The notes under the pieces are model-generated. The model was not told where the DNA came from, searched no databases, and was given only the letters and a program-made list of their open reading frames with translations. Below are positions 966 through 7,660 of a stretch of DNA of 7,771 nucleotides, one piece after another. Both the position numbers and the translations under genes were made by a program. Every line of letters begins with the position of its first letter. Position 1 is the first letter of the stretch. The stretch comes from a virus (taxonomy: Duplodnaviria > Heunggongvirae > Uroviricota > Caudoviricetes). The DNA lies in the IMG/VR virus record IMGVR_UViG_2740892422_000009, positions 1 through 7,771 of that record. One strand, given 5' to 3'.

Positions 966-1304
966 TTATATCATTAATTTTGTTTCGTGCCAGCCTTTGG
1001 TCACCCAGCATTGTGAGTCACCATTACACGGGCATGAATTAACAGGAACTCTCTCGCCGCACTTACCGCAACGTTTTCTGCTGATCGATTTTATACGCCA
1101 GCGCACACGTGCATCATCCTGGCGGCTCAGTAACGCGATGTACTCACCAAACTCGCAAGGCGCACGCCTGAAACGACGCGTGGCACAGTTACGCTCCAGC
1201 ATTTCAATTTCCTGAGCATCAAGTACAAGCTCCAGCTTACGCATACCGGATGATGCTTGCTTGGCTCTCTGATCGGCTTTGTGCTCTGTTGCTGATTTAG
1301 CCAT
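966..1304 (-). CDS. Hypothetical protein with C-terminal Cys-rich putative zinc-ribbon motif (112 aa)
   Basis: ATG at 1302-1304 is preceded by AGGAAAAGCAGA. The C-terminus carries C-x2-C-x8-C-x-C-x5-C (…RCGKCGERVPVNSCPCNGDSQC…), preceded by an Arg-rich helical region, suggesting a small zinc-binding nucleic-acid-binding protein. No family assigned. Confidence 0.5.
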   Translation of the reverse strand: MAKSATEHKADQRAKQASSGMRKLELVLDAQEIEMLERNCATRRFRRAPCEFGEYIALLSRQDDARVRWRIKSISRKRCGKCGERVPVNSCPCNGDSQCWVTKGWHETKLMI

Positions 1305-1345
1305 TCTGCTTTTCCTGCATCAGGAGAAAGACAATCATGGCGGCG

Positions 1346-1447
1346 CGGATACTTCCGGTATCTTTTTACGCGATATTCTCCTTCAATGGCACATACAAGA
1401 AGAGAGCCATCAACAGGAGTGATTGAGGAATCGACAACCAGCAACGC
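1346..1447 (-). pseudogene. Remnant of the C-terminal part of an S24-peptidase (UmuD / LexA / cI-like) gene
   Basis: The minus-strand frame directly after an in-frame TAA (1448-1450) reads ALLVVDSSITPVDGSLLVCAIEGEYRVKRYRKYP. This resembles the recalled UmuD segment [34 protein letters not shown]. There is no ATG (the six-frame track starts it at a TTG), no catalytic Ser/Lys region upstream, and the similarity stops after about 34 codons. Confidence 0.35.
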
Positions 1448-1497
1448 TTAATTATCTATAGTGTCGTATTTGCTTCATAAAATATGGCGAATAACAC

Positions 1498-1532
1498 AAA
1501 GCCCGCAGCAGCTCATTGTGCGGGCTTTTCTT
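1498..1532. terminator. Intrinsic terminator hairpin, possibly bidirectional, downstream of the secreted-protein gene
   Basis: AAAGCCCGCA (1498-1507) pairs with TGCGGGCTTT (1519-1528), giving a stem of 7 GC-rich bp plus A:T extensions. UUUUCUU follows on the plus strand and UUUGUGUUAUU on the minus strand. It lies about 70 nt beyond the stop of the 204-aa ORF. Confidence 0.55.
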
Positions 1533-1597
1533 ATACCTACTTCCTAGAGATAATTCTATGGAGGCATTAAATCAATACTGTCATTGGTAATATCATA

Positions 1598-2212
1598 TTA
1601 TCTAAAAGTCTTTCCACTTTTAACATCTAGGTATATTCTGTTCGACAACGTCATTCCTCCGCAATATGTGAAATAGATGTTTTCACCCTTATTGCTTGAT
1701 GCCATCCACCCTCCGATTTCCTTAAAATCGCTTTCCGTGCAGACCCCTTCATTTATTAACTTCCTAGCTGCCGAAGAAAACTCTTTTTTGTATATACGGT
1801 AGTCATCAGATCCTTTGATTAAAGTATCATCTCCGCTCGCATTTTCAGCAGGATCTGATGGCCTTTCACTGCTAAGATCACTAAGTTTAACCCATTCTGA
1901 AAACTTGCCATTAACGATTCCATTTTTTCTTGTGCAGGATTTATTACCTTCTTTAATATATTCGCTTTCCCCTCCAACACATGAGGCTGAATATGGCTCA
2001 GTTATACGAACCCATTCACCTTTTTTTTCTAGAAAATCTACGCCTTCCCTGAAAAATAGTTTCCCAGCCACTCCACATTTACTTGAAGGGCAGGTATGTC
2101 TTTCCGTTCGATCAACAACAACCCATAGTTTTGATTCATTTTTTGCCATTGCCGATGGTATTTGAGATGAGACAATTAACGTAAGCCCTAAAATTAGTAT
2201 TGATTTTTTCAT
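1598..2212 (-). CDS. Secreted or periplasmic hypothetical protein with Sec signal peptide (204 aa)
   Basis: ATG at 2210-2212 is preceded by AAGGAAAT. The N-terminus MKKSILILGLTLIVSSQIPSAMA|KNE has a basic n-region, a hydrophobic core and an AxA signal-peptidase-I site; there is no lipobox Cys. The mature part has several Cys and two W-containing segments that might be SH3-like repeats (speculative). Moderately A+T-rich. Confidence 0.65.
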   Translation of the reverse strand: MKKSILILGLTLIVSSQIPSAMAKNESKLWVVVDRTERHTCPSSKCGVAGKLFFREGVDFLEKKGEWVRITEPYSASCVGGESEYIKEGNKSCTRKNGIVNGKFSEWVKLSDLSSERPSDPAENASGDDTLIKGSDDYRIYKKEFSSAARKLINEGVCTESDFKEIGGWMASSNKGENIYFTYCGGMTLSNRIYLDVKSGKTFR

Positions 2213-2351
2213 TGTAATTTCCTTTTACTTTTTACAAAGCGTTTAATCATGGCTGATTATCTCTAAGCGTAGTAACAGCCTTGTGCGAAACATGTTACCA
2301 AATCGCCATTTCAGTGTATCCGCAGTTAGGCTGCCACTTCAAGGATTCCTA

Positions 2352-2510
2352 ATTACATGGTACGTAAGCGTAAAATCCCGTTGGTTGGCGGGTAATAACT
2401 CTGATCAAATCTCCCTTGTCTTTTGCTCTTACGTATGCAGCTCTTGTGTATTCAACCCAGGCCTCCAGTTCAGCAATACGCTTACTTCCATCCGAGATAA
2501 CACCTTCTAC
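2352..2510 (-). pseudogene. 52 open codons in frame with, and directly downstream of, the 83-aa ORF past its TGA stop
   Basis: After the TGA at 2511-2513 the same minus-strand frame continues VEGVISDGSKRIAELEAWVEYTRAAYVRAKDKGDLIRSYYPPTNGILRLRTM and ends at TAA 2352-2354. The composition looks protein-like. This suggests a nonsense-interrupted gene of about 136 codons (2352..2762), or a sequencing error. Confidence 0.3.
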
Positions 2511-2762
2511 TCACGCTGCTCGTTGAGTTTTGATTTTTGCTGTCTCCAGCTCAACACGCAGTTTCCCCACCGTTAGCGCAATATCCTCGTTCTCCTGGTC
2601 GCGGCGTTTGATGTATTGCTGGTTTCTTTCCCGTTCATCCAGCAGTGTCAGCACAATCGATGGTGTTACCAGCTCATGGAAAAGGTCCGCGTCAAATCCC
2701 CAGTTGTCATGCATTGCCTGCTCTGCCGCTTCACGCAGTGCCTGAGAGTGAATTACGCTCAC
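2511..2762 (-). CDS. Hypothetical phage protein, 83 aa as called; possibly the N-terminal part of a TGA-interrupted Ea22-like gene
   Basis: ATG at 2760-2762 overlaps the stop of the upstream TraR-like gene (ATGA). The protein MSVIHSQALREAAEQAMHDNWGFDADLF… is acidic and helical. My impression that it resembles N-termini of Ead/Ea22-like prophage proteins is unverified. Confidence 0.55.
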   Translation of the reverse strand: MSVIHSQALREAAEQAMHDNWGFDADLFHELVTPSIVLTLLDERERNQQYIKRRDQENEDIALTVGKLRVELETAKIKTQRAA

Positions 2763-2980
2763 TTCGAACCTCTCTGTTTACTGATAAGCTCCAGATCTTC
2801 CTGGCAACTTGCACAAGTCCGACAACCCTGAACGGCCAGGCGTCTTCGCTTATCTATGGGATCGCCACACTCACAACAATGAGTGGCAGATATAGCCTGG
2901 TGGTTCAGGCGGCGCATTTTTATTGCTGTGTTGCGCTGTAATTCTTCAATTTCTGATGCTGAATCAATGAGGTCTGCCAT
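2759..2980 (-). CDS. TraR/DksA-family C4-type zinc-finger protein (73 aa)
   Basis: 73 aa with C-x2-C-x17-C-x2-C (…CCECGDPIDKRRRLAVQGCRTCASCQ…). Length and Cys spacing match the F-plasmid TraR / phage TraR-like family, which binds the RNA polymerase secondary channel. ATG at 2978-2980. Confidence 0.75.
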   Translation of the reverse strand: MADLIDSASEIEELQRNTAIKMRRLNHQAISATHCCECGDPIDKRRRLAVQGCRTCASCQEDLELISKQRGSK

Positions 2981-3035
2981 CTTCCATTAATCCCTGAATT
3001 GTTGGTTAATACGCTTGAGGGTGAATGCGAATAAT

Positions 3036-3056
3036 AAAAAAGGAGCCTGTAGCTCC
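3036..3056 (-). terminator. Weak intrinsic terminator-like hairpin between the 71-aa ORF and the TraR-like gene
   Basis: Plus strand aaaaaa-GGAGC-ctgta-GCTCC. On the minus strand this is a 5-bp GC stem followed by UUUUUUAUUAUU. Confidence 0.35.
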
Positions 3057-3078
3057 CTGATGATTTTGCTTTTCATGT

Positions 3079-3294
3079 TCACCGTTCCTTAAAGACGCCG
3101 TTTAACATACCGATTGCCAGACTTAAGTGAGTCGGTGTGAATCCCATCAGCGTTACCGTTTCGCGGTGCTTCTTCAGTACGCTACGGCAAATGTCATCGA
3201 CGTTTTTATCCGGAAACTGCTGTCTGGCTTTTTTGATTTCAGAATTAGCCTGACGGGCAATACTGCGAAGGGCGTTTTCTTGCTGAGGTGTCAT
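3079..3294 (-). CDS. Hypothetical small phage protein (71 aa from ATG 3292-3294; the upstream in-frame ATG at 3358-3360 would give 93 aa)
   Basis: The ORF occupies the position of lambda orf61 but is longer and does not overlap orf63 as lambda orf61 does. The first 22 codons of the 93-aa version are Cys/His-rich with no Shine-Dalgarno, so the internal ATG (MTPQQENALRSIARQ…) is favoured, though its RBS is weak (GGGA). Confidence 0.45.
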   Translation of the reverse strand: MTPQQENALRSIARQANSEIKKARQQFPDKNVDDICRSVLKKHRETVTLMGFTPTHLSLAIGMLNGVFKER

Positions 3295-3370
3295 TGAACA
3301 AGTCCCATGTCGGCAAGCATAAGCACACAGAATATGAAGCCCGCTGCCAGAAAAATGCATTCAGTGGTTG

Positions 3371-3562
3371 TCATACCTGGTCTCTCTCATCTGCTTCTGC
3401 TTTCGCCACCATCATTTCCAGCTTTTGTGAAAGGGATGCGGCTAACGTATGAAATTCTTCGTCTGTTTCTACTGGTATTGGCACAAACCTGACTCCAATT
3501 TGAGCGAGGCTATGTGCCATCTCAATGCTCGTTCTTAACTCAACAGGAGATGCTTTGTGCAT
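3371..3562 (-). CDS. Lambda orf63-like small protein (63 aa)
   Basis: 192-nt ORF immediately distal to orf60a, overlapping it by 28 nt out of frame. This is the same length and overlap geometry I recall for lambda orf63. GGGGAG lies upstream of the ATG at 3560-3562. Confidence 0.6.
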   Translation of the reverse strand: MHKASPVELRTSIEMAHSLAQIGVRFVPIPVETDEEFHTLAASLSQKLEMMVAKAEADERDQV

Positions 3563-3717
3563 ACAGCTCCCCGTTTATTATTTATCTCCTCAGCCAGCCG
3601 CTGTGCTTTCAGGGGATTTCGGGTAACAGAAAGGCCGGGAAATACCCAGCCTCGCTTTGTAACGGAGTAGACGAAAGTGATCGCGCCTACCCGGATATTA
3701 TCGTGAGGATGCTTCAT
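3535..3717 (-). CDS. Lambda orf60a-like small protein (60 aa)
   Basis: ATG at 3715-3717 overlaps the exo stop (TGA 3714-3716) as ATGA. The 183-nt length matches lambda orf60a as recalled. The six-frame track begins two codons earlier, at ATG 3721-3723. Confidence 0.55.
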
Positions 3718-4394
3718 CGCCATTGCTTCCCAAATACAAAACCAATTTCAGCCAGTGCCTCGTCCATTTTTTCGATGAACTCCGGCACCATCTCGTCAAA
3801 ACTCGCCATGTACTTTTCATCCCGCTCAACCACGACATAATGCAGTCCTTCACGCTTCATCCGCGGGTCATAGTTGGCAAAGTACCAGGCATCTTTTCGT
3901 GTCACCCACATGCTGTACTGCACCTGGGCCATGTAAGCCGACTTTATGGCCTCGAAACCACCGAGCCGGAACTTCATGAAATCCCGGGAGGTAAACGGGC
4001 ATTTCAGCTCAAGGCCATTGCCGTCACTGCATAAACCATCGGGAGAGCAGGCGGTACGCATACTTTCGTCGCGATAGATGATCGGGGATTCAATAACATT
4101 CACGCCGGAAGTGAACTCAAACAGGGTTCTGGCGTCGTTCTCGTACTGTTTTCCCCATGCCAGCGCCTTAGCATTAACTTCCGGAGCCACACCGGTGCAA
4201 ACCTCAGCCAGCAGGGTGTGGAAGTAGGACATTTTCATGTCAGGCCACTTCTTTCCTGAGCGGGGCTTTGCTATCACGTTGTGAACTTCTGAAGCGGTGA
4301 TGACGCCGAGCCGTAATTTGTGCCATGCATCATCCCCTTGTTCGACAGCTCTCACGTCGATCCCGGTACGCTGCAGGATAATGTCCGGTGTCAT
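3714..4394 (-). CDS. exo: Lambda exonuclease (Red-alpha), 5'->3' dsDNA exonuclease (226 aa)
   Basis: The translation [37 protein letters not shown]… matches phage lambda Exo as I recall it over its full 226 aa. Its start overlaps the bet stop (ATGA at 4391-4394), as in lambda. Confidence 0.96.
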
Positions 4395-5176
4395 GCTGCC
4401 ACCTTCTGCTCAGTGGCTTTCTGTTTCAGGAATCCAAGAGCTTTCACTGCTTCGGCCTGTGTCAGTTCTGACGATGCGCGAATGTCGCGGCGAAATATCT
4501 GGGAACAGAGCGGCAATAAGTCGTCATCCCATGTTTTATCCAGGGCGATCAGCAGAGTGTTAATCTCCTGCATGGTTTCATCGTTAACCGGAGTGATGTC
4601 GCGTTCCGGCTGACGTTCTGCAGTGTATGCAGTATTTTCGACAATGCGCTCGGCTTCATCCTTGTCATAGATACCAGCAAATCCGAAGGCCAGACGGGCA
4701 CACTGAATCATGGCTTTATGCCGTAACATCCGTTTGGGATGCGACTGCCACGGGCCGGTGATTTCTCTGCCTTCGCGGGTTTTGAATGGTTCGCGTCGGC
4801 ATTCGTCCATCCACTCGGTAACGCAGATCGGATGATTACGGTCCTTGCGGTAAATCCGGCATGTACAGGATTCATTGTCCTGCTCAAAGTCCATGCCATC
4901 AAACTGCTGGTTTTCATTGATGATGCGGGACCAGCCATCAACGCCCACCACCGGAACGATGCCGTTCTGCTTATCAGGGAAGGCGTAAATTTCTTTCGTC
5001 CACGGATTAAGGCCGTACTGGTTGGCAACGATCAGTAATGCGATGAACTGCGCATCGCTGGCATCACCTTTAAATGCCGTCTGGCGAAGAGTGGTGATCA
5101 GTTCCTGTGGGTCGACAGAATCCATGCCGACACGTTCAGCCAGCTTCCCAGCCAGCGTTGCGAGTGCTGTACTCAT
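4391..5176 (-). CDS. bet: Red-beta (Bet) single-strand annealing recombinase (261 aa)
   Basis: The translation [66 protein letters not shown]… matches lambda Bet as recalled, at the same 261-aa length, positioned between gam and exo. Confidence 0.96.
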
Positions 5177-5181
5177 CCGTT

Positions 5182-5598
5182 TTATACCTCTGAATCAATA
5201 TCAACCTGGTGGTGAGCAATGGTTTCAACCATGTACCGGATGTGTTCTGCCATGCGCTCCTGAAACTCAACATCGTCATCAAACGCACGGGTAATGGCTT
5301 TTTTGCTGGCCCCGTGGCGTTGTAAATGATCGATGCAGAGTGATTCAAACAGGTGCTGGGGCAGACCTTTTTCCATGTCGTCTGCCAGTTCTGCCTCTTT
5401 CTCTTCACGGACGATCTGCTGGTAGTGACGCGCCCAGCTCTGAGCCTCAAGACGATCCTGAATGTAATAAGCGTTCATGGCTGAACTCCTGAAATAGCTG
5501 TGAAAATATCGCCCGCGAAATGCCAGGCTGATTAGGAAAACAGGAAAGGGGGTTAGTGAATGATTTTGCTTGATCTCAGTTTCAGCATTAATATCCAT
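5182..5598 (-). CDS. gam: Gam, RecBCD inhibitor (138-aa long form; the internal Met of …[10 protein letters not shown]… would give the 98-aa GamS form)
   Basis: The translation [24 protein letters not shown]…HQVDIDSEV matches lambda Gam as recalled, with a few substitutions. It lies 5 nt upstream of bet. Confidence 0.94.
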
Positions 5599-5696
5599 TT
5601 TTTATAAGCGTCGACGGCTTCACGAAACATCTTTTCATCGCCAATAAAAGTGGCGATAGTGAATTTAGTCTGGATAGCCATAAGTGTTTGATCCAT
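5553..5696 (-). CDS. kil: Kil, host cell-division (FtsZ) inhibitor (47 aa)
   Basis: ATG at 5694-5696 gives [47 protein letters not shown], matching lambda Kil as recalled. AGGAG lies upstream. The track ORF (89 aa from ATG 5820-5822) is an upstream in-frame extension that runs through cIII and is rejected. The 3' end overlaps the gam start. Confidence 0.75.
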
Positions 5697-5829
5697 TTTT
5701 TGGGACTCCTGGCTGATTAAGTATGTCGATAAGGCGTTTCCATCCGTCACGTAATTTACGGGTGATTCGTTCAAGTAAAGATTCGGAAGGGCAGCCAGCA
5801 ACAGGCCACCCTGCAATGGCATATTGCAT
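5665..5829 (-). CDS. cIII: cIII, inhibitor of FtsH-mediated cII degradation (54 aa)
   Basis: Not in the track because it is under 60 aa. Manual translation from ATG 5827-5829 gives [54 protein letters not shown] with TAA at 5665-5667, matching lambda cIII as recalled. AAGGAG lies 6 nt upstream. It overlaps kil by 32 nt in another frame, as in lambda. Confidence 0.88.
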   Translation of the reverse strand: MQYAIAGWPVAGCPSESLLERITRKLRDGWKRLIDILNQPGVPKNGSNTYGYPD

Positions 5830-5855
5830 GGTGTGCTCCTTATTTATACATAACG

Positions 5856-5878
5856 AAAAACGCCTCGAGTGAAGCGTT
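5856..5878 (-). terminator. Intrinsic terminator-like hairpin between ea10 and cIII (tL2-like position)
   Basis: Plus strand aaaaa-CGCCTC-gagt-GAAGCG-tt is an imperfect 8-bp stem with one mismatch. On the minus strand it is followed by UUUUUCGUUAUG, immediately upstream of the cIII Shine-Dalgarno. Confidence 0.4.
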
Positions 5879-5901
5879 ATTGGTATGCGGTAACGCCGCG
5901 C

Positions 5902-6270
5902 TCAGGCGGCTTTGATAGTCATATCATCTGAATCAAATATTCCTGATGTATCGATATCGGTAATTCTTATTCCTTCGCTACCATCCATTGGAGGCCATCC
6001 TTCCTGACCATTTCCATCATTCCAGTCGAACTCGCACACAACACCATATGCATTTAAGTCGCTTGAAATTGCTATAAGCAGAGCATGTTGCGCCAGCATG
6101 ATTAATACAGCATTTAATACAGAGCCGTGTTTATTGAGTCGGTATTCAGAGTCTGACCAGAAATTATTAATCTGGTGAAGTTTTTCCTCTGTCATTACGT
6201 CATGGTCGATTTCAATTTCTATTGATGCTTTCCAGTCGTAATCAATGATGTATTTTTTGATGTTTGACAT
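5902..6270 (-). CDS. ea10: Ea10-like protein (lambda ea10/ssb homolog, 122 aa)
   Basis: The translation MSNIKKYIIDYDWKASIEIEIDHDVMTEEKLHQINNFWSDSEY… matches the lambda Ea10 sequence as I recall it, at the same 122-aa length, and the gene sits directly promoter-proximal to cIII as ea10 does in lambda. GAGGA lies upstream of the ATG at 6268-6270. Confidence 0.8.
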   Translation of the reverse strand: MSNIKKYIIDYDWKASIEIEIDHDVMTEEKLHQINNFWSDSEYRLNKHGSVLNAVLIMLAQHALLIAISSDLNAYGVVCEFDWNDGNGQEGWPPMDGSEGIRITDIDTSGIFDSDDMTIKAA

Positions 6271-6442: not shown

Positions 6443-6460
6443 AACCCGCCTGAGCGGGTT
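6443..6460 (-). terminator. Intrinsic terminator-like hairpin overlapping the stop codon of the novel ORF (tL1-like position)
   Basis: Plus strand AACCCGC-ctga-GCGGGTT is a 7-bp stem with a 4-nt loop. On the minus strand it is followed by UCAUUUUCAC. The TAA stop (6459-6461) of the 289/293-aa ORF lies inside the stem. Confidence 0.5.
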
Positions 6461-7328
6461 ATGACCACTTTTTGTTTGGATTTCGTTGGTGAGCGTGGTT
6501 TACAGGATTATTTGATATACCCCATAACTCTGACTCGCTTATCTCTACACGAGAGAAAGACCTGCTTTCTTTCAGTTCTTTTATAAACCTAGAACCTACG
6601 ATGACATCTATTGTCCCAGAAAGTTCTTGTAAAAGATCTTTGTTTTTTCTGAGGAAGAAAACATCTTCTTTATATTTAATTTTTACATAGAATTTATTCT
6701 GTATTTTTAATATATCAAAGCATGGCAGATATCTATATCCCTCATGCTTTCGCCACTGCTTAACAATTATAACATCTCTTTCATTTACTGCATTAATCAG
6801 CCCAAGACCAAGTATAGGTATGAATATTCTATTGTCTGCCGAAAGCGTACAATTATCACCACCAGGCAAATATGTATAAATCATGTCGGAATTTTTATAC
6901 GCATCAACGAATGCACGTAAGAATCGTACATATTTTTGCCATCCGTTTATACCAAATTTACCATATAAGTATTCTTTATTTGTTAGAAGAAAACTATTTG
7001 TATCAGGAGCCTTATCTACAGACCTGTCGATAAGATCTCCAACTACGTTTACAAAGTCAAAGACAGAGTTTAATAAGAACAATTGTCTTTCAGTCGGGCG
7101 AATTTCAATTATGTAGCCTGGATGAAGACGATATTGCATCTGCTTACGAAGTATACTGAACGCTTGGGTCCGGGCATCTGAAAGCAACTTCCTGTCGCCA
7201 TCGCCGTGAGCATTGTTTCTAATAAAACTGATATAATTTGCTAATTTTTCAGCCTCTTTTTTGTGTTTTTTTCGCTCTGATGCTGAGTCTATTGGTTTTG
7301 GTATGGACTTGTAATCAATTTTCTTCAT
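6459..7328 (-). CDS. Novel A+T-rich hypothetical protein in the N-to-ea10 hotspot (289 aa from ATG 7326-7328; 293 aa from ATG 7338-7340); candidate superinfection-exclusion or abortive-infection gene
   Basis: A long uninterrupted ORF of very low GC (6661-6720 has 9 G+C in 60 nt, against 38 in 60 for bet at 4741-4800). GAGG lies 6 nt upstream of ATG 7326-7328. The alternative ATG at 7338-7340 overlaps the N stop as ATGA. It occupies the slot held by ral/sieB in lambda but is unrelated to either. I see no Walker A motif, transmembrane helix or signal peptide. Confidence 0.7.
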   Translation of the reverse strand: MKKIDYKSIPKPIDSASERKKHKKEAEKLANYISFIRNNAHGDGDRKLLSDARTQAFSILRKQMQYRLHPGYIIEIRPTERQLFLLNSVFDFVNVVGDLIDRSVDKAPDTNSFLLTNKEYLYGKFGINGWQKYVRFLRAFVDAYKNSDMIYTYLPGGDNCTLSADNRIFIPILGLGLINAVNERDVIIVKQWRKHEGYRYLPCFDILKIQNKFYVKIKYKEDVFFLRKNKDLLQELSGTIDVIVGSRFIKELKESRSFSRVEISESELWGISNNPVNHAHQRNPNKKWS

Positions 7329-7336
7329 TACGTACC

Positions 7337-7660
7337 TCATGCCAATGGAATGGATTTCCCTTTAACCTTTTGTCTTCCTTGACAAGTTATACCGAACTCA
7401 CTTGGCTTGCTATACCAAACTCGATGATTCTTGCGCTCAATACGTTGCAGGTTGCTTTCAATCTGTTCGTGGTATTCAGCCAGCACCGTAAGGTCTATCG
7501 GATTCAGTGCGCTTTCTACTCGTGATTTCGGTTTGCGATTCAGCGAGAGAATAGGGCGGTTAACTGGTTTTGCGCTTACCCCAACCAACAGGGGATTTGC
7601 TGCTTTCCATTGAGCCTGTTTCTCTGCGCGACGTTCGCGGCGGCGTGTTTGTGCATCCAT
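7337..7660 (-). CDS. N: N antitermination protein (107 aa)
   Basis: From ATG 7658-7660: MDAQTRRRERRAEKQAQWKAANPLLVGVSAKPVNRPILSLNRKPKSRVESALNPIDLTVLAEYHEQIESNLQRIERKNHRVWYSKPSEFGITCQGRQKVKGKSIPLA. The arginine-rich boxB-binding motif and N-terminal two-thirds match lambda N as recalled, with substitutions clustered in the C-terminal third. The track ORF (144 aa) is an in-frame extension into the leader. TGA stop at 7337-7339. Confidence 0.95.
   Translation of the reverse strand: MDAQTRRRERRAEKQAQWKAANPLLVGVSAKPVNRPILSLNRKPKSRVESALNPIDLTVLAEYHEQIESNLQRIERKNHRVWYSKPSEFGITCQGRQKVKGKSIPLA

What the first reader, a model, noticed from the sequence alone, without database searches (positions are those of the whole stretch)
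1498..2350. A+T-rich secreted-protein moron with its own terminator: possible lysogenic-conversion or surface-exclusion factor
The 204-aa ORF has a textbook Sec signal peptide (MKKSILILGLTLIVSSQIPSAMA, AxA cleavage site), several cysteines and lower GC than the Red core. It sits between regulatory-looking intergenic regions (about 140 bp upstream; a strong hairpin downstream at 1498-1532). Periplasmic moron proteins in prophages often act on the envelope, for example by blocking receptors or DNA injection, or as virulence or fitness factors.
Basis: partly seen in the sequence, partly recalled or inferred. Interest (0 to 1): 0.55.

Follow-up and report, generated by a model that had tools for sequence, protein, structure and literature searches.

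The report
Mobile gene for exported wall-binding protein
A lambda-like prophage carries a self-contained, horizontally traded gene for a secreted, disulfide-bonded periplasmic protein made of a cell-wall-binding-type SH3b domain plus a small domain that resembles no solved structure; its job is untested, but it most likely acts at the cell wall.

The parts
1598..2212 (-). Protein-coding gene, 204 aa plus stop. An exported two-module protein (E. coli WP_000748282-type, PHROG 8310).
   Evidence: ORF. phrog_8310, E 1.8e-136, function unknown. dN/dS 0.075 against the E. fergusonii copy. AlphaFold2 pLDDT 90.7.
2144..2212 (-). Signal peptide, aa 1-23 (MKK / SILILGLTLIVSS / QIPSAMA), with predicted SPase I cleavage after A-M-A.
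   Evidence: Sequence. pLDDT is below 70 for residues 1-25 and the fold begins at residue 27. Homologues keep AxA/AxG sites or swap in a lipobox or a TM anchor.
1877..2137 (-). SH3b-fold module, about aa 26-112. It includes a Cys-bridged loop (C41, C46) and a Cys-rich inserted hairpin (aa ~74-100; C78, C93).
1829..1876 (-). Conserved linker, aa 113-128, with a near-invariant R-P-x-D-P motif. It is modelled with high confidence.
   Evidence: Alignment A1: P118 is invariant; R117, D120 and P121 are at least 90% conserved. pLDDT 94-97 over this block.
1601..1828 (-). C-terminal alpha-alpha-beta-beta-beta module, aa 129-204, with an invariant C158/C184 pair and the motifs SDD, GGW, YFTYCGG and NRIYL. 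It is an uncharacterised autonomous exported domain.
2213..2354 (-). Conserved 142-bp leader that travels with the ORF. It contains the SD (AAGGA, 2224-2220).
   Evidence: Homology to the E. fergusonii phage-plasmid starts abruptly at 2354. Identity is 81% against 59% at four-fold sites, p 6e-9. No LexA box, no repeats and no structured-RNA signal.
2313..2342 (-). Candidate weak sigma-70 promoter: TTGAAG (2342-2337), 18 nt spacer, TACACT (2318-2313). Inferred only.
   Evidence: Both hexamers are invariant between the two copies while the spacer varies. The match is 8/12, below the scanner's 9/12 cut-off.
1487..1528 (-). G+C-rich hairpin (arms 1528-1519 and 1507-1498) followed by a U-rich tract. 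A plausible intrinsic terminator 70 nt after the stop codon. A-tract before and T-tract after, so possibly bidirectional.
   Evidence: Inverted repeat I6. -19 kcal/mol, z -2.9. It is not part of the cassette shared with L006.
1338..1447 (-). Internal scrap of a HumD/UmuD-like S24 peptidase gene (pseudogene remnant) on the downstream flank of the cassette.
   Evidence: PGAP annotates it as 'DNA repair protein, incomplete'. It is 85-90% identical to humD genes of ~110-kb phage-plasmids and 75% to the humD-like gene next to the ORF in L006.
2381..2459 (-). About 80-bp internal scrap of a 208-aa hypothetical gene of SSU5/pHCM2-type phage-plasmids, on the upstream flank.
   Evidence: Short 86-90% hits to ~106-113-kb plasmids. 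Maps to L098 3996-4064, inside WP_024173390.
2464..2762 (-). 5' part of ea22 (truncated, frameshifted). This is the end of the lambda-type exo-xis sequence.
   Evidence: 95% identity to lambda 30094-30733 begins at window 2464. PGAP annotates it as 'ead/Ea22-like, frameshifted, incomplete'.

Best explanation
The locus is a single-gene cargo cassette (ORF plus a 142-bp constrained leader, window 2354-1596). It has been spliced into the exo-xis region of a lambda-like temperate phage, where it replaces the 3' part of ea22 and ea8.5.

Shown or strongly supported:
- The product is made with a cleavable Sec signal and is oxidised in the periplasm to three disulfides (C41-C46, C78-C93, C158-C184).
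- It folds into one compact unit: an SH3b module of the type that docks enzymes onto peptidoglycan stem peptides, joined by a conserved RPxDP linker to an ~80-aa alpha-alpha-beta-beta-beta module.
- That second module is the autonomous core of a large unnamed family of exported proteins of Gram-negative (diderm) bacteria.
- The protein has no catalytic-domain signature and no conserved partner gene.

Inferred mechanism: it works alone as a binder. The SH3b module tethers it to the sacculus, and the C-terminal module engages a periplasmic ligand or protein.

Expression: the gene points the same way as pL, so it is transcribed with the earliest lytic genes. The constrained leader may add weak constitutive expression in the lysogen.

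Most likely benefit (inferred): an envelope-level advantage for cells carrying the mobile element. Examples are shielding the wall against agents that must breach it, such as tail lysins of superinfecting phages, secreted wall-degrading toxins or lysozymes.

Confidence by step:
- Gene, export, disulfides, domain layout and cassette mobility: at least 0.85.
- Peptidoglycan tethering: about 0.5.
- Protective or exclusion role: about 0.25-0.3.
For: - Real, constrained gene: dN/dS 0.075. Present at 99.9% identity in 129 of 5426 complete E. coli genomes and in the isolated phage Chlobot.
- Export: n-h-c/AxA signal. In the family sample, 83 members have an SPase-I-like signal, 26 a lipobox, and the 29 long forms mostly a signal peptide or TM anchor. 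Cysteines are gained and lost only in pairs: 136 members have all six, 41 only the last pair, 4 pairs 1+3 and 1 pairs 2+3.
- C-terminal module: confident model with no relatives. Stand-alone lipoprotein forms exist.
- Cassette: the shared segment is 2354-1596. The leader is constrained. Flanking scraps are colinear with a phage-plasmid. Lambda homology ends at 2464.
- Recurrence on mobile elements: integrase-adjacent in Pseudomonas islets, an Aeromonas prophage region, a ColE1-type 5.3-kb plasmid and plasmids with conjugative-transfer genes.
- No conserved neighbour in 77 loci.
- Early pL transcription of the exo-xis region is established knowledge (PMC4195576, PMC8614690).
Against: - No experiment or homology links the protein to exclusion, immunity or any other phenotype. 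PADLOC, NCBIfam, Pfam and PHROG give no function.
- The Pfam SH3_3 score is below the gathering threshold, and peptidoglycan binding is inferred from the fold class only.
- Distant family members are ordinary chromosomal genes with genus-level synteny in Vibrio and next to pheST in another lineage. This fits a housekeeping envelope role at least as well as a defence role.
- No promoter reaches consensus thresholds.
- The hairpin is not part of the mobile unit.
- In ATCC 8739 an IS1 sits inside the leader without the ORF decaying. This shows that leader integrity is not essential for retention over short time spans.
Confidence: 0.4

Rival explanations
1. General envelope or cell-wall accessory protein. 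[quoted passage not shown] The copies on mobile elements would simply give the host an extra dose or variant, with no role in phage exclusion.
For: - Chromosomal, syntenic members occur in Vibrio and next to housekeeping genes in other lineages.
- The module is found soluble, lipid-anchored or anchored by a transmembrane helix, which is typical of envelope housekeeping modules.
- TagV precedent: an exported SH3b plus a small disulfide-bonded C-terminal domain, likely binding peptidoglycan (PMC7614798).
Against: - No conserved neighbour or operon partner was found in 77 loci.
- The clade containing the window's gene is almost entirely on mobile elements and sits next to integrases, which suggests a selectable, portable trait.
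- One of the carriers is a 5.3-kb plasmid with only four annotated genes.
Confidence: 0.25
2. A function for the phage's own lytic cycle. Made early from pL, the periplasmic protein would modify or mask the wall during infection. It could exclude superinfecting sister phages, prevent re-adsorption losses or tune lysis timing, rather than serving the lysogen.
For: - It is co-directional with exo, bet, gam, xis and int, inside the exo-xis block that is transcribed first after infection (PMC4195576).
- No strong independent promoter is present.
- It is present in a viable isolated phage, Chlobot.
- T4 Spackle and Imm are precedents, from general knowledge, for early-expressed envelope exclusion proteins.
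Against: - The same protein is carried by non-phage elements: Pseudomonas integrase islets, plasmids, and chromosomes.
- The leader is constrained, which suggests regulation of its own.
- In one Pseudomonas and two E. coli genomes the gene persists in islets or prophages that carry mobile-element insertions or a pseudogenised neighbouring gene.
Confidence: 0.15
3. Lysogenic-conversion or virulence factor aimed at a eukaryotic host or at surfaces. The protein would be released or surface-exposed and bind host glycans or matrix.
For: - The carriers include human and animal E. coli isolates.
Against: - The family is dominated by environmental and marine bacteria: Rhodobacterales, Vibrio, Pseudomonas, Acidobacteriota.
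- There is no secretion-system context and no outer-membrane export signal.
- Carriage in E. coli is not linked to a pathotype in the hit list: giant panda, pigeon, wastewater, human.
Confidence: 0.07
4. A decaying hitch-hiker: a non-functional remnant carried along with the surrounding gene scraps.
For: The immediate flanks are pseudogene scraps, and IS1 insertions occur nearby.
Against: - dN/dS is 0.075.
- The reading frame is intact in all full-length copies seen, including ATCC 8739, which differs by only 2 aa.
- The family is deep and conserved, with invariant residues.
- The fold prediction is confident.
Confidence: 0.02

Closest known systems
Bacterial SH3b cell-wall-binding domains (Pfam SH3_3 and related; e.g. 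lysostaphin SH3b, endolysin wall-binding domains, N-terminal SH3b of NlpC/P60 endopeptidases)
   Different: It is not fused to any hydrolase domain. It sits in the periplasm of a Gram-negative cell. It carries a Cys-bridged loop and a 27-aa Cys-rich insertion. The query scores below Pfam's threshold. Ligand binding is untested.
[quoted passage not shown]
   Same: An exported Gram-negative protein built from an SH3b-like domain plus a small disulfide-stabilised C-terminal domain. It has no enzymatic domain and is proposed to bind peptidoglycan. Its disulfide formation depends on DsbA.
   Different: TagV's C-terminal domain is about 27 aa of three short strands, whereas here it is ~80 aa of two helices and three strands. 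TagV lies in T6SS clusters; this gene has no T6SS neighbours. Sequence homology was not tested because the TagV sequence was not at hand.
Phage morons encoding envelope proteins (lambda bor and lom; see 'The moron comes of age', PMC3594210)
   Same: An extra gene of deviant base composition inserted between conserved phage genes. It is horizontally exchanged, encodes an exported protein and has a hairpin downstream.
   Different: An independent promoter and expression in the lysogen are not shown. The gene lies in the early-left operon and is co-directional with it. The hairpin is not part of the unit shared with the other copy.
Periplasmic or envelope superinfection-exclusion proteins (T4 Spackle, P1 Sim, T5 Llp, Cor, P22 SieA)
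   Same: A small exported protein encoded by a temperate phage or mobile element that could act on incoming phage at the envelope. This is a functional analogy only. The comparison rests on general knowledge plus PMC10883804 and bioRxiv 10.64898/2026.03.26.714494, both known here only from the abstracts listed.
   Different: No sequence or fold similarity was detected to any of them. No phenotype is known.
PHROG 8310 / NCBI WP_000748282 'hypothetical protein'
   Same: It is this protein: full-length match, E 1.8e-136, and the identical RefSeq protein.
   Different: These entries carry no functional or structural annotation. The domain analysis and distribution given here are additional.

Membership tests
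Sec-exported, SPase-I-processed periplasmic protein | N-terminal signal with a positive n-region, a hydrophobic h-region and small residues at -3/-1 | tested here: met
   MKK / SILILGLTLIVSS / QIPS-A-M-A|K. Homologues keep AxA or AxG at the aligned site. SignalP itself was not available.
Sec-exported, SPase-I-processed periplasmic protein | Extracytoplasmic location supported independently of the signal sequence | tested here: met
   Family members carry interchangeable export devices: 83 SPase-I-like, 26 lipobox, and the 29 long forms mostly a signal peptide or TM anchor. Three cysteine pairs co-vary as pairs.
Sec-exported, SPase-I-processed periplasmic protein | Demonstrated cleavage and periplasmic localisation | not testable with these tools
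   Needs PhoA or BlaM fusions, fractionation or N-terminal sequencing.
SH3b (bacterial SH3) domain | SH3-like beta-barrel fold matching solved SH3b domains | tested here: met
SH3b (bacterial SH3) domain | Sequence match to Pfam SH3_3 (PF08239) above the gathering score | tested here: not met
   16.2 bits against a cut-off of 27, E 0.012, aa 40-72. About a dozen homologues do carry a precomputed PF08239 hit.
SH3b (bacterial SH3) domain | Binding of peptidoglycan stem peptide or cross-bridge | not testable with these tools
   Needs sacculus pull-down or NMR titration. Invariant W67 and W107 are compatible with binding but are not a test.
Phage moron (independent transcription unit added between conserved genes) | Inserted between genes that are adjacent in related phages, with deviant base composition | tested here: met
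   Lambda homology ends at 2464 inside ea22. GC is 38% against 51%. The cassette 2354-1596 is shared with an unrelated phage-plasmid.
Phage moron (independent transcription unit added between conserved genes) | Own promoter | tested here: inconclusive
   No site of at least 9/12 on the ORF's strand. The leader is constrained. TTGAAG-18-TACACT is conserved with a variable spacer, but it matches only 8/12.
Phage moron (independent transcription unit added between conserved genes) | Own terminator | tested here: inconclusive
   The hairpin with a U-tract is present. It lies outside the unit shared with L006 and was not called by the scanner on the ORF's strand.
Phage moron (independent transcription unit added between conserved genes) | Expressed from the repressed prophage | not testable with these tools
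   Needs RNA-seq or 5'-RACE of a lysogen.
Known superinfection-exclusion or anti-phage defence proteins | Sequence similarity to a catalogued defence or exclusion protein | tested here: not met
   PADLOC: 0 families. PHROG: an unknown-function family only. Pfam and NCBIfam: none.
Proteinaceous lysozyme inhibitors (Ivy, MliC/PliC, PliI, PliG) | Match to the corresponding Pfam families or folds | tested here: not met
TagV-like T6SS accessory lipoproteins | Location in a T6SS gene cluster | tested here: not met
   No recurrent T6SS neighbour in 77 loci or in the loci on mobile elements.
TagV-like T6SS accessory lipoproteins | Sequence homology to TagV | not tested
Only the published architecture was compared.

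The most novel reading that the evidence does not exclude
The ~80-aa disulfide-locked C-terminal module would define a new, widespread periplasmic domain family whose fold has no solved relative. Its SH3b-fused versions on mobile elements (lambdoid prophages, phage-plasmids, Pseudomonas integrase islets, small plasmids) would then be a new class of single-protein, sacculus-anchored protection factors. They would block wall-breaching attack by superinfecting phages or by secreted wall-degrading toxins.
Probability: 0.2. Interest if true: 0.7.

Novelty: new member of a known kind. Interest (0 to 1): 0.4.

Why it matters
- Morons and cargo genes that encode envelope proteins are a main route by which prophages change their hosts, yet most remain 'hypothetical'.
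- This one belongs to a large, strongly constrained family of Gram-negative bacteria: 1611 clusters at 50% identity. Its core domain has no Pfam entry and no structural relative.
- The family has been captured repeatedly by very different mobile elements as a stand-alone gene. That pattern implies a portable one-protein trait acting at the cell wall.
- Finding its ligand would annotate thousands of genes. It could also reveal a new wall-anchored protection or scaffolding mechanism.
- If it turns out to be a generic periplasmic binder, the finding is ordinary.

Tried and rejected
1. Sequence profile against the PDB. The only 'significant' hits were de novo designed TIM barrels. They arise from summing four sub-threshold matches of an SDDxR-helix motif, and no single stretch passes. 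Rejected as artefact.
3. Foldseek against viral structures. Only SH3b-level matches, with no full-length analogue. The AFDB library was unavailable.
4. PADLOC, NCBIfam and Pfam on the protein and on its C-terminal module. Nothing found.
5. Conserved-neighbour analysis of 77 loci and annotation of the Pseudomonas islet partners. No informative partner; only a KilA-N-like regulator.
6. The leader as a LexA-regulated region, given its association with humD, as an operator with repeats, as a structured 5'-UTR (z -0.9, no compensatory pairs) or as a known RNA family. All negative.
7. The leader as a cross-genus conserved element. It is conserved only within the Escherichia lineage.
8. The identical plasmid copies as evidence of plasmid origin. 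Rejected: they are the same prophage fragment embedded in IncA-type and other large plasmids.
9. The equal spacing of the two flanking scraps in phage-plasmids as evidence that a diverged homologue sits between them there. Rejected: that 800-bp gap is free of ORFs, and tblastn found no homologue in those plasmids.
10. Literature searches by accession, phage name and motif. No paper found.

Full report
**1. What is in the sequence**

The window is the early-left arm of a lambda-like prophage, read on the minus strand. In order it holds N, a 293-aa ORF, DUF2528, cIII, kil, gam, bet, exo, the exo-xis genes (DUF1317, DUF1382, an orf60a-like gene, a TraR/DksA-like gene, a truncated ea22), then the finding. 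After that come a 112-aa gene, DUF2513 and xis. In E. coli AMSHJX01 the same arm is integrated next to ybhC.

The finding's ORF is real. It spans 1598-2212 (minus strand), 204 aa, with an AAGGA Shine-Dalgarno 7 nt before the ATG. Its GC content is 38.0%, against 51.4% for exo-bet-gam.

The hairpin is a perfect 10-bp inverted repeat at 1498-1507 / 1519-1528. On the ORF's strand it folds at -19 kcal/mol (z -2.9) and is followed by UUUGUGUUAUU. The simple scanner did not call it on that strand.

**2. It is a functional gene for an exported protein**

- The E. coli copy and an 89%-identical copy on an E. fergusonii phage-plasmid differ with dN 0.056, dS 0.75 and dN/dS 0.075.
- The word-indexed search found 83 homologues, all unnamed. 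A profile search of the 50%-identity representative library found 1611 clusters at E up to 1e-3, 617 of them at E up to 1e-10.
- The N-terminus has a classical n-h-c signal with A-M-A at -3/-1.
- Across the family the same mature module is preceded by an SPase-I-type signal (83 members), a lipobox (26), or, in 29 longer forms, mostly a signal peptide or transmembrane anchor, sometimes behind a cytoplasmic zinc ribbon or ankyrin repeats.
- The six cysteines behave as three units. 136 members have all six, 41 have only C158/C184, 4 have C41/C46 plus C158/C184, and 1 has C78/C93 plus C158/C184. There is only one odd case. This is the signature of three disulfides, and therefore of an oxidising compartment.

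**3. Structure**

AlphaFold2 run on a 33-sequence alignment gives pLDDT 90.7 and pTM 0.73. Only the signal peptide has low confidence.

- *Stand-alone forms.* Versions of the C-terminal module alone, 106-115 aa with lipoprotein signals, exist in Marinobacter, Rhizobium, Methylophilaceae and others. It is therefore an autonomous exported domain and the core of the family. The SH3b module is an add-on, present with or without the Cys-rich insertion.

**4. Mobility and anatomy of the insertion**

- Lambda-type sequence (95% to lambda 30094-30733) stops at window 2464, inside ea22.
- Homology to the E. fergusonii phage-plasmid copy runs from 2354 to 1596. That is exactly the ORF plus 142 bp upstream, and it ends at the stop codon. 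The hairpin is therefore not part of the shared unit.
- The leader is 81% identical where four-fold degenerate sites are 59% identical (p 6e-9), so it is constrained.
- Within the leader, TTGAAG (2342-2337), an 18-nt spacer and TACACT (2318-2313) are invariant while the spacer varies. This is only an 8/12 match, below the scanner's threshold.
- No LexA box, repeat, structured-RNA signal or Rfam family was found. The leader is not conserved in the Pseudomonas, Aeromonas or Citrobacter copies.
- The flanks are scraps. Window 2381-2459 is an internal piece of a 208-aa gene, and 1344-1447 an internal piece of humD. Both genes belong to ~110-kb SSU5/pHCM2-type phage-plasmids and are colinear with pEC7518-111k, where an ORF-free, A+T-rich 800-bp gap separates them.
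- The 'identical' copies on IncA-type and other large plasmids are the same prophage fragment.

**5. Distribution and context**

- The full block occurs in 129 of 5426 complete E. coli genomes at about 99.9% identity and in the isolated phage Chlobot.
- Relatives at 57-69% identity sit directly downstream of tyrosine integrases in ~5-6-kb islets of several Pseudomonas species. Others lie in an Aeromonas prophage-like region, on a 5.3-kb ColE1-type plasmid, on a Pseudomonas plasmid with ICE-type transfer genes (two paralogues) and on a Chelativorans plasmid.
- More distant members (30-50% identity) occur in Rhodobacterales, Hyphomicrobiales, Vibrio, Shewanella, Burkholderiales, Campylobacterota, Acidobacteriota and Vampirovibrionales. 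Some are in ordinary chromosomal settings or in genus-level synteny in Vibrio.
- No neighbour is conserved across the family. The target is present in 69 loci and the next most common cluster in 11.
- GC content of the gene tracks that of its host or replicon, from 38% to 63%, so the family is old in each lineage.

**6. Interpretation**

Shown or strongly supported: the gene is real, the protein is exported and disulfide-bonded, it has a two-module architecture, and it moves as a cassette.

Inferred: the SH3b module tethers the protein to peptidoglycan. The C-terminal module binds a periplasmic target. The protein acts alone, since it has no partner gene and no catalytic signature.

Because it is co-directional with pL inside the exo-xis block, it should be transcribed at the earliest stage of lytic growth (PMC4195576, PMC8614690). 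The constrained leader may add expression in the lysogen.

My preferred functional reading is a portable envelope-protection factor, with probability about 0.25-0.3. It rests on repeated capture by unrelated mobile elements as a single gene. The main rival is a general envelope accessory role like that of the type VI secretion (T6SS) lipoprotein TagV (PMC7614798), supported by the chromosomal members. A decaying remnant is excluded by the selection data.

**7. Comparison and novelty**

The gene already exists in databases as a 'hypothetical protein' (WP_000748282, PHROG 8310) with no annotation. No paper was found.

As a phage cargo gene for an exported protein it is a new member of a known kind. 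The novel element is the unassigned C-terminal domain and the breadth of its family.

It does not meet membership criteria for known exclusion or defence proteins, or for lysozyme inhibitors. It meets the fold criterion for SH3b but not the Pfam threshold.

Interest is moderate (0.4). This is a well-defined, testable, widespread unknown, but there is nothing yet that a specialist would find startling.

Noticed in passing
window 6459-7340 (minus strand): A 293-aa, very A+T-rich ORF (31-35% GC) lies directly downstream of the lambda-type N gene. It occupies the place where a related prophage has sieB and a hypothetical gene (L001). It matches phrog_12139 (function unknown). Its last 20 residues (…HQRNPNKKWS) match the C-terminus of Nun-like transcription-termination factors (phrog_5632, E 4e-5). 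No Pfam or PADLOC hit.
   Followed up: partly
L008 4402-10411; L012-L015; L019; L020 (Pseudomonas spp.): A recurrent ~5-6-kb islet: tyrosine integrase, sometimes a Bro-N gene, the SH3b-module homologue, then unknowns of about 100-236 aa, 130-139 aa and 333-337 aa, and a ~175-aa KilA-N-like protein. In three of the genomes it is inserted between sdhE/cptA and nadB. It may be a family of small integrative elements, possibly satellite-like, with this protein as fixed cargo.
   Followed up: partly
window ~2270-2278; L099 3166-3863 (E. coli ATCC 8739). H1 and H2 (strains PSS-16 and OY754443) also carry an IS1 within window 1400-2500; its site was not mapped.: An IS1 element is inserted inside the conserved leader, about 57-67 nt upstream of the ATG and downstream of the candidate promoter. 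The ORF is still intact, with 2 aa changes. The insertion may uncouple or replace the native promoter.
   Followed up: partly
window 1338-2763 versus L098 (pEC7518-111k) 2812-5932: The stretch from ea22 to the humD scrap is colinear with an SSU5/pHCM2-type phage-plasmid: Ea22-like, DUF551, two hypothetical genes, a gap, then humD. This points to recombination between lambdoid prophages and phage-plasmids in this arm. In the E. fergusonii phage-plasmid the humD-like gene lies upstream of the ORF rather than downstream.
   Followed up: partly
window 966-1304 (minus strand), overlapped by the spurious 105-aa ORF 1127-1444: A 112-aa gene (phrog_536, 'transcriptional regulator') with a Cys-rich C-terminus (CGKCGERVPVNSCPCNGDSQC). 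In ATCC 8739 it carries an internal stop. The overlapping 105-aa ORF that one phage record annotates as 'UmuD-like protein' is only the humD scrap read through.
   Followed up: no
L003, L006, L008, L011, L012 (starts of the homologous genes): Most copies of the gene on mobile elements outside E. coli start with TTG or GTG instead of ATG. This suggests deliberately low translation initiation.
   Followed up: no
L004 3208-3852 and 5956-6588 (Pseudomonas veronii plasmid): Two paralogues of the gene lie on one plasmid, 2 kb apart, near ICE-type conjugation genes and a DsbA-family gene.
   Followed up: no
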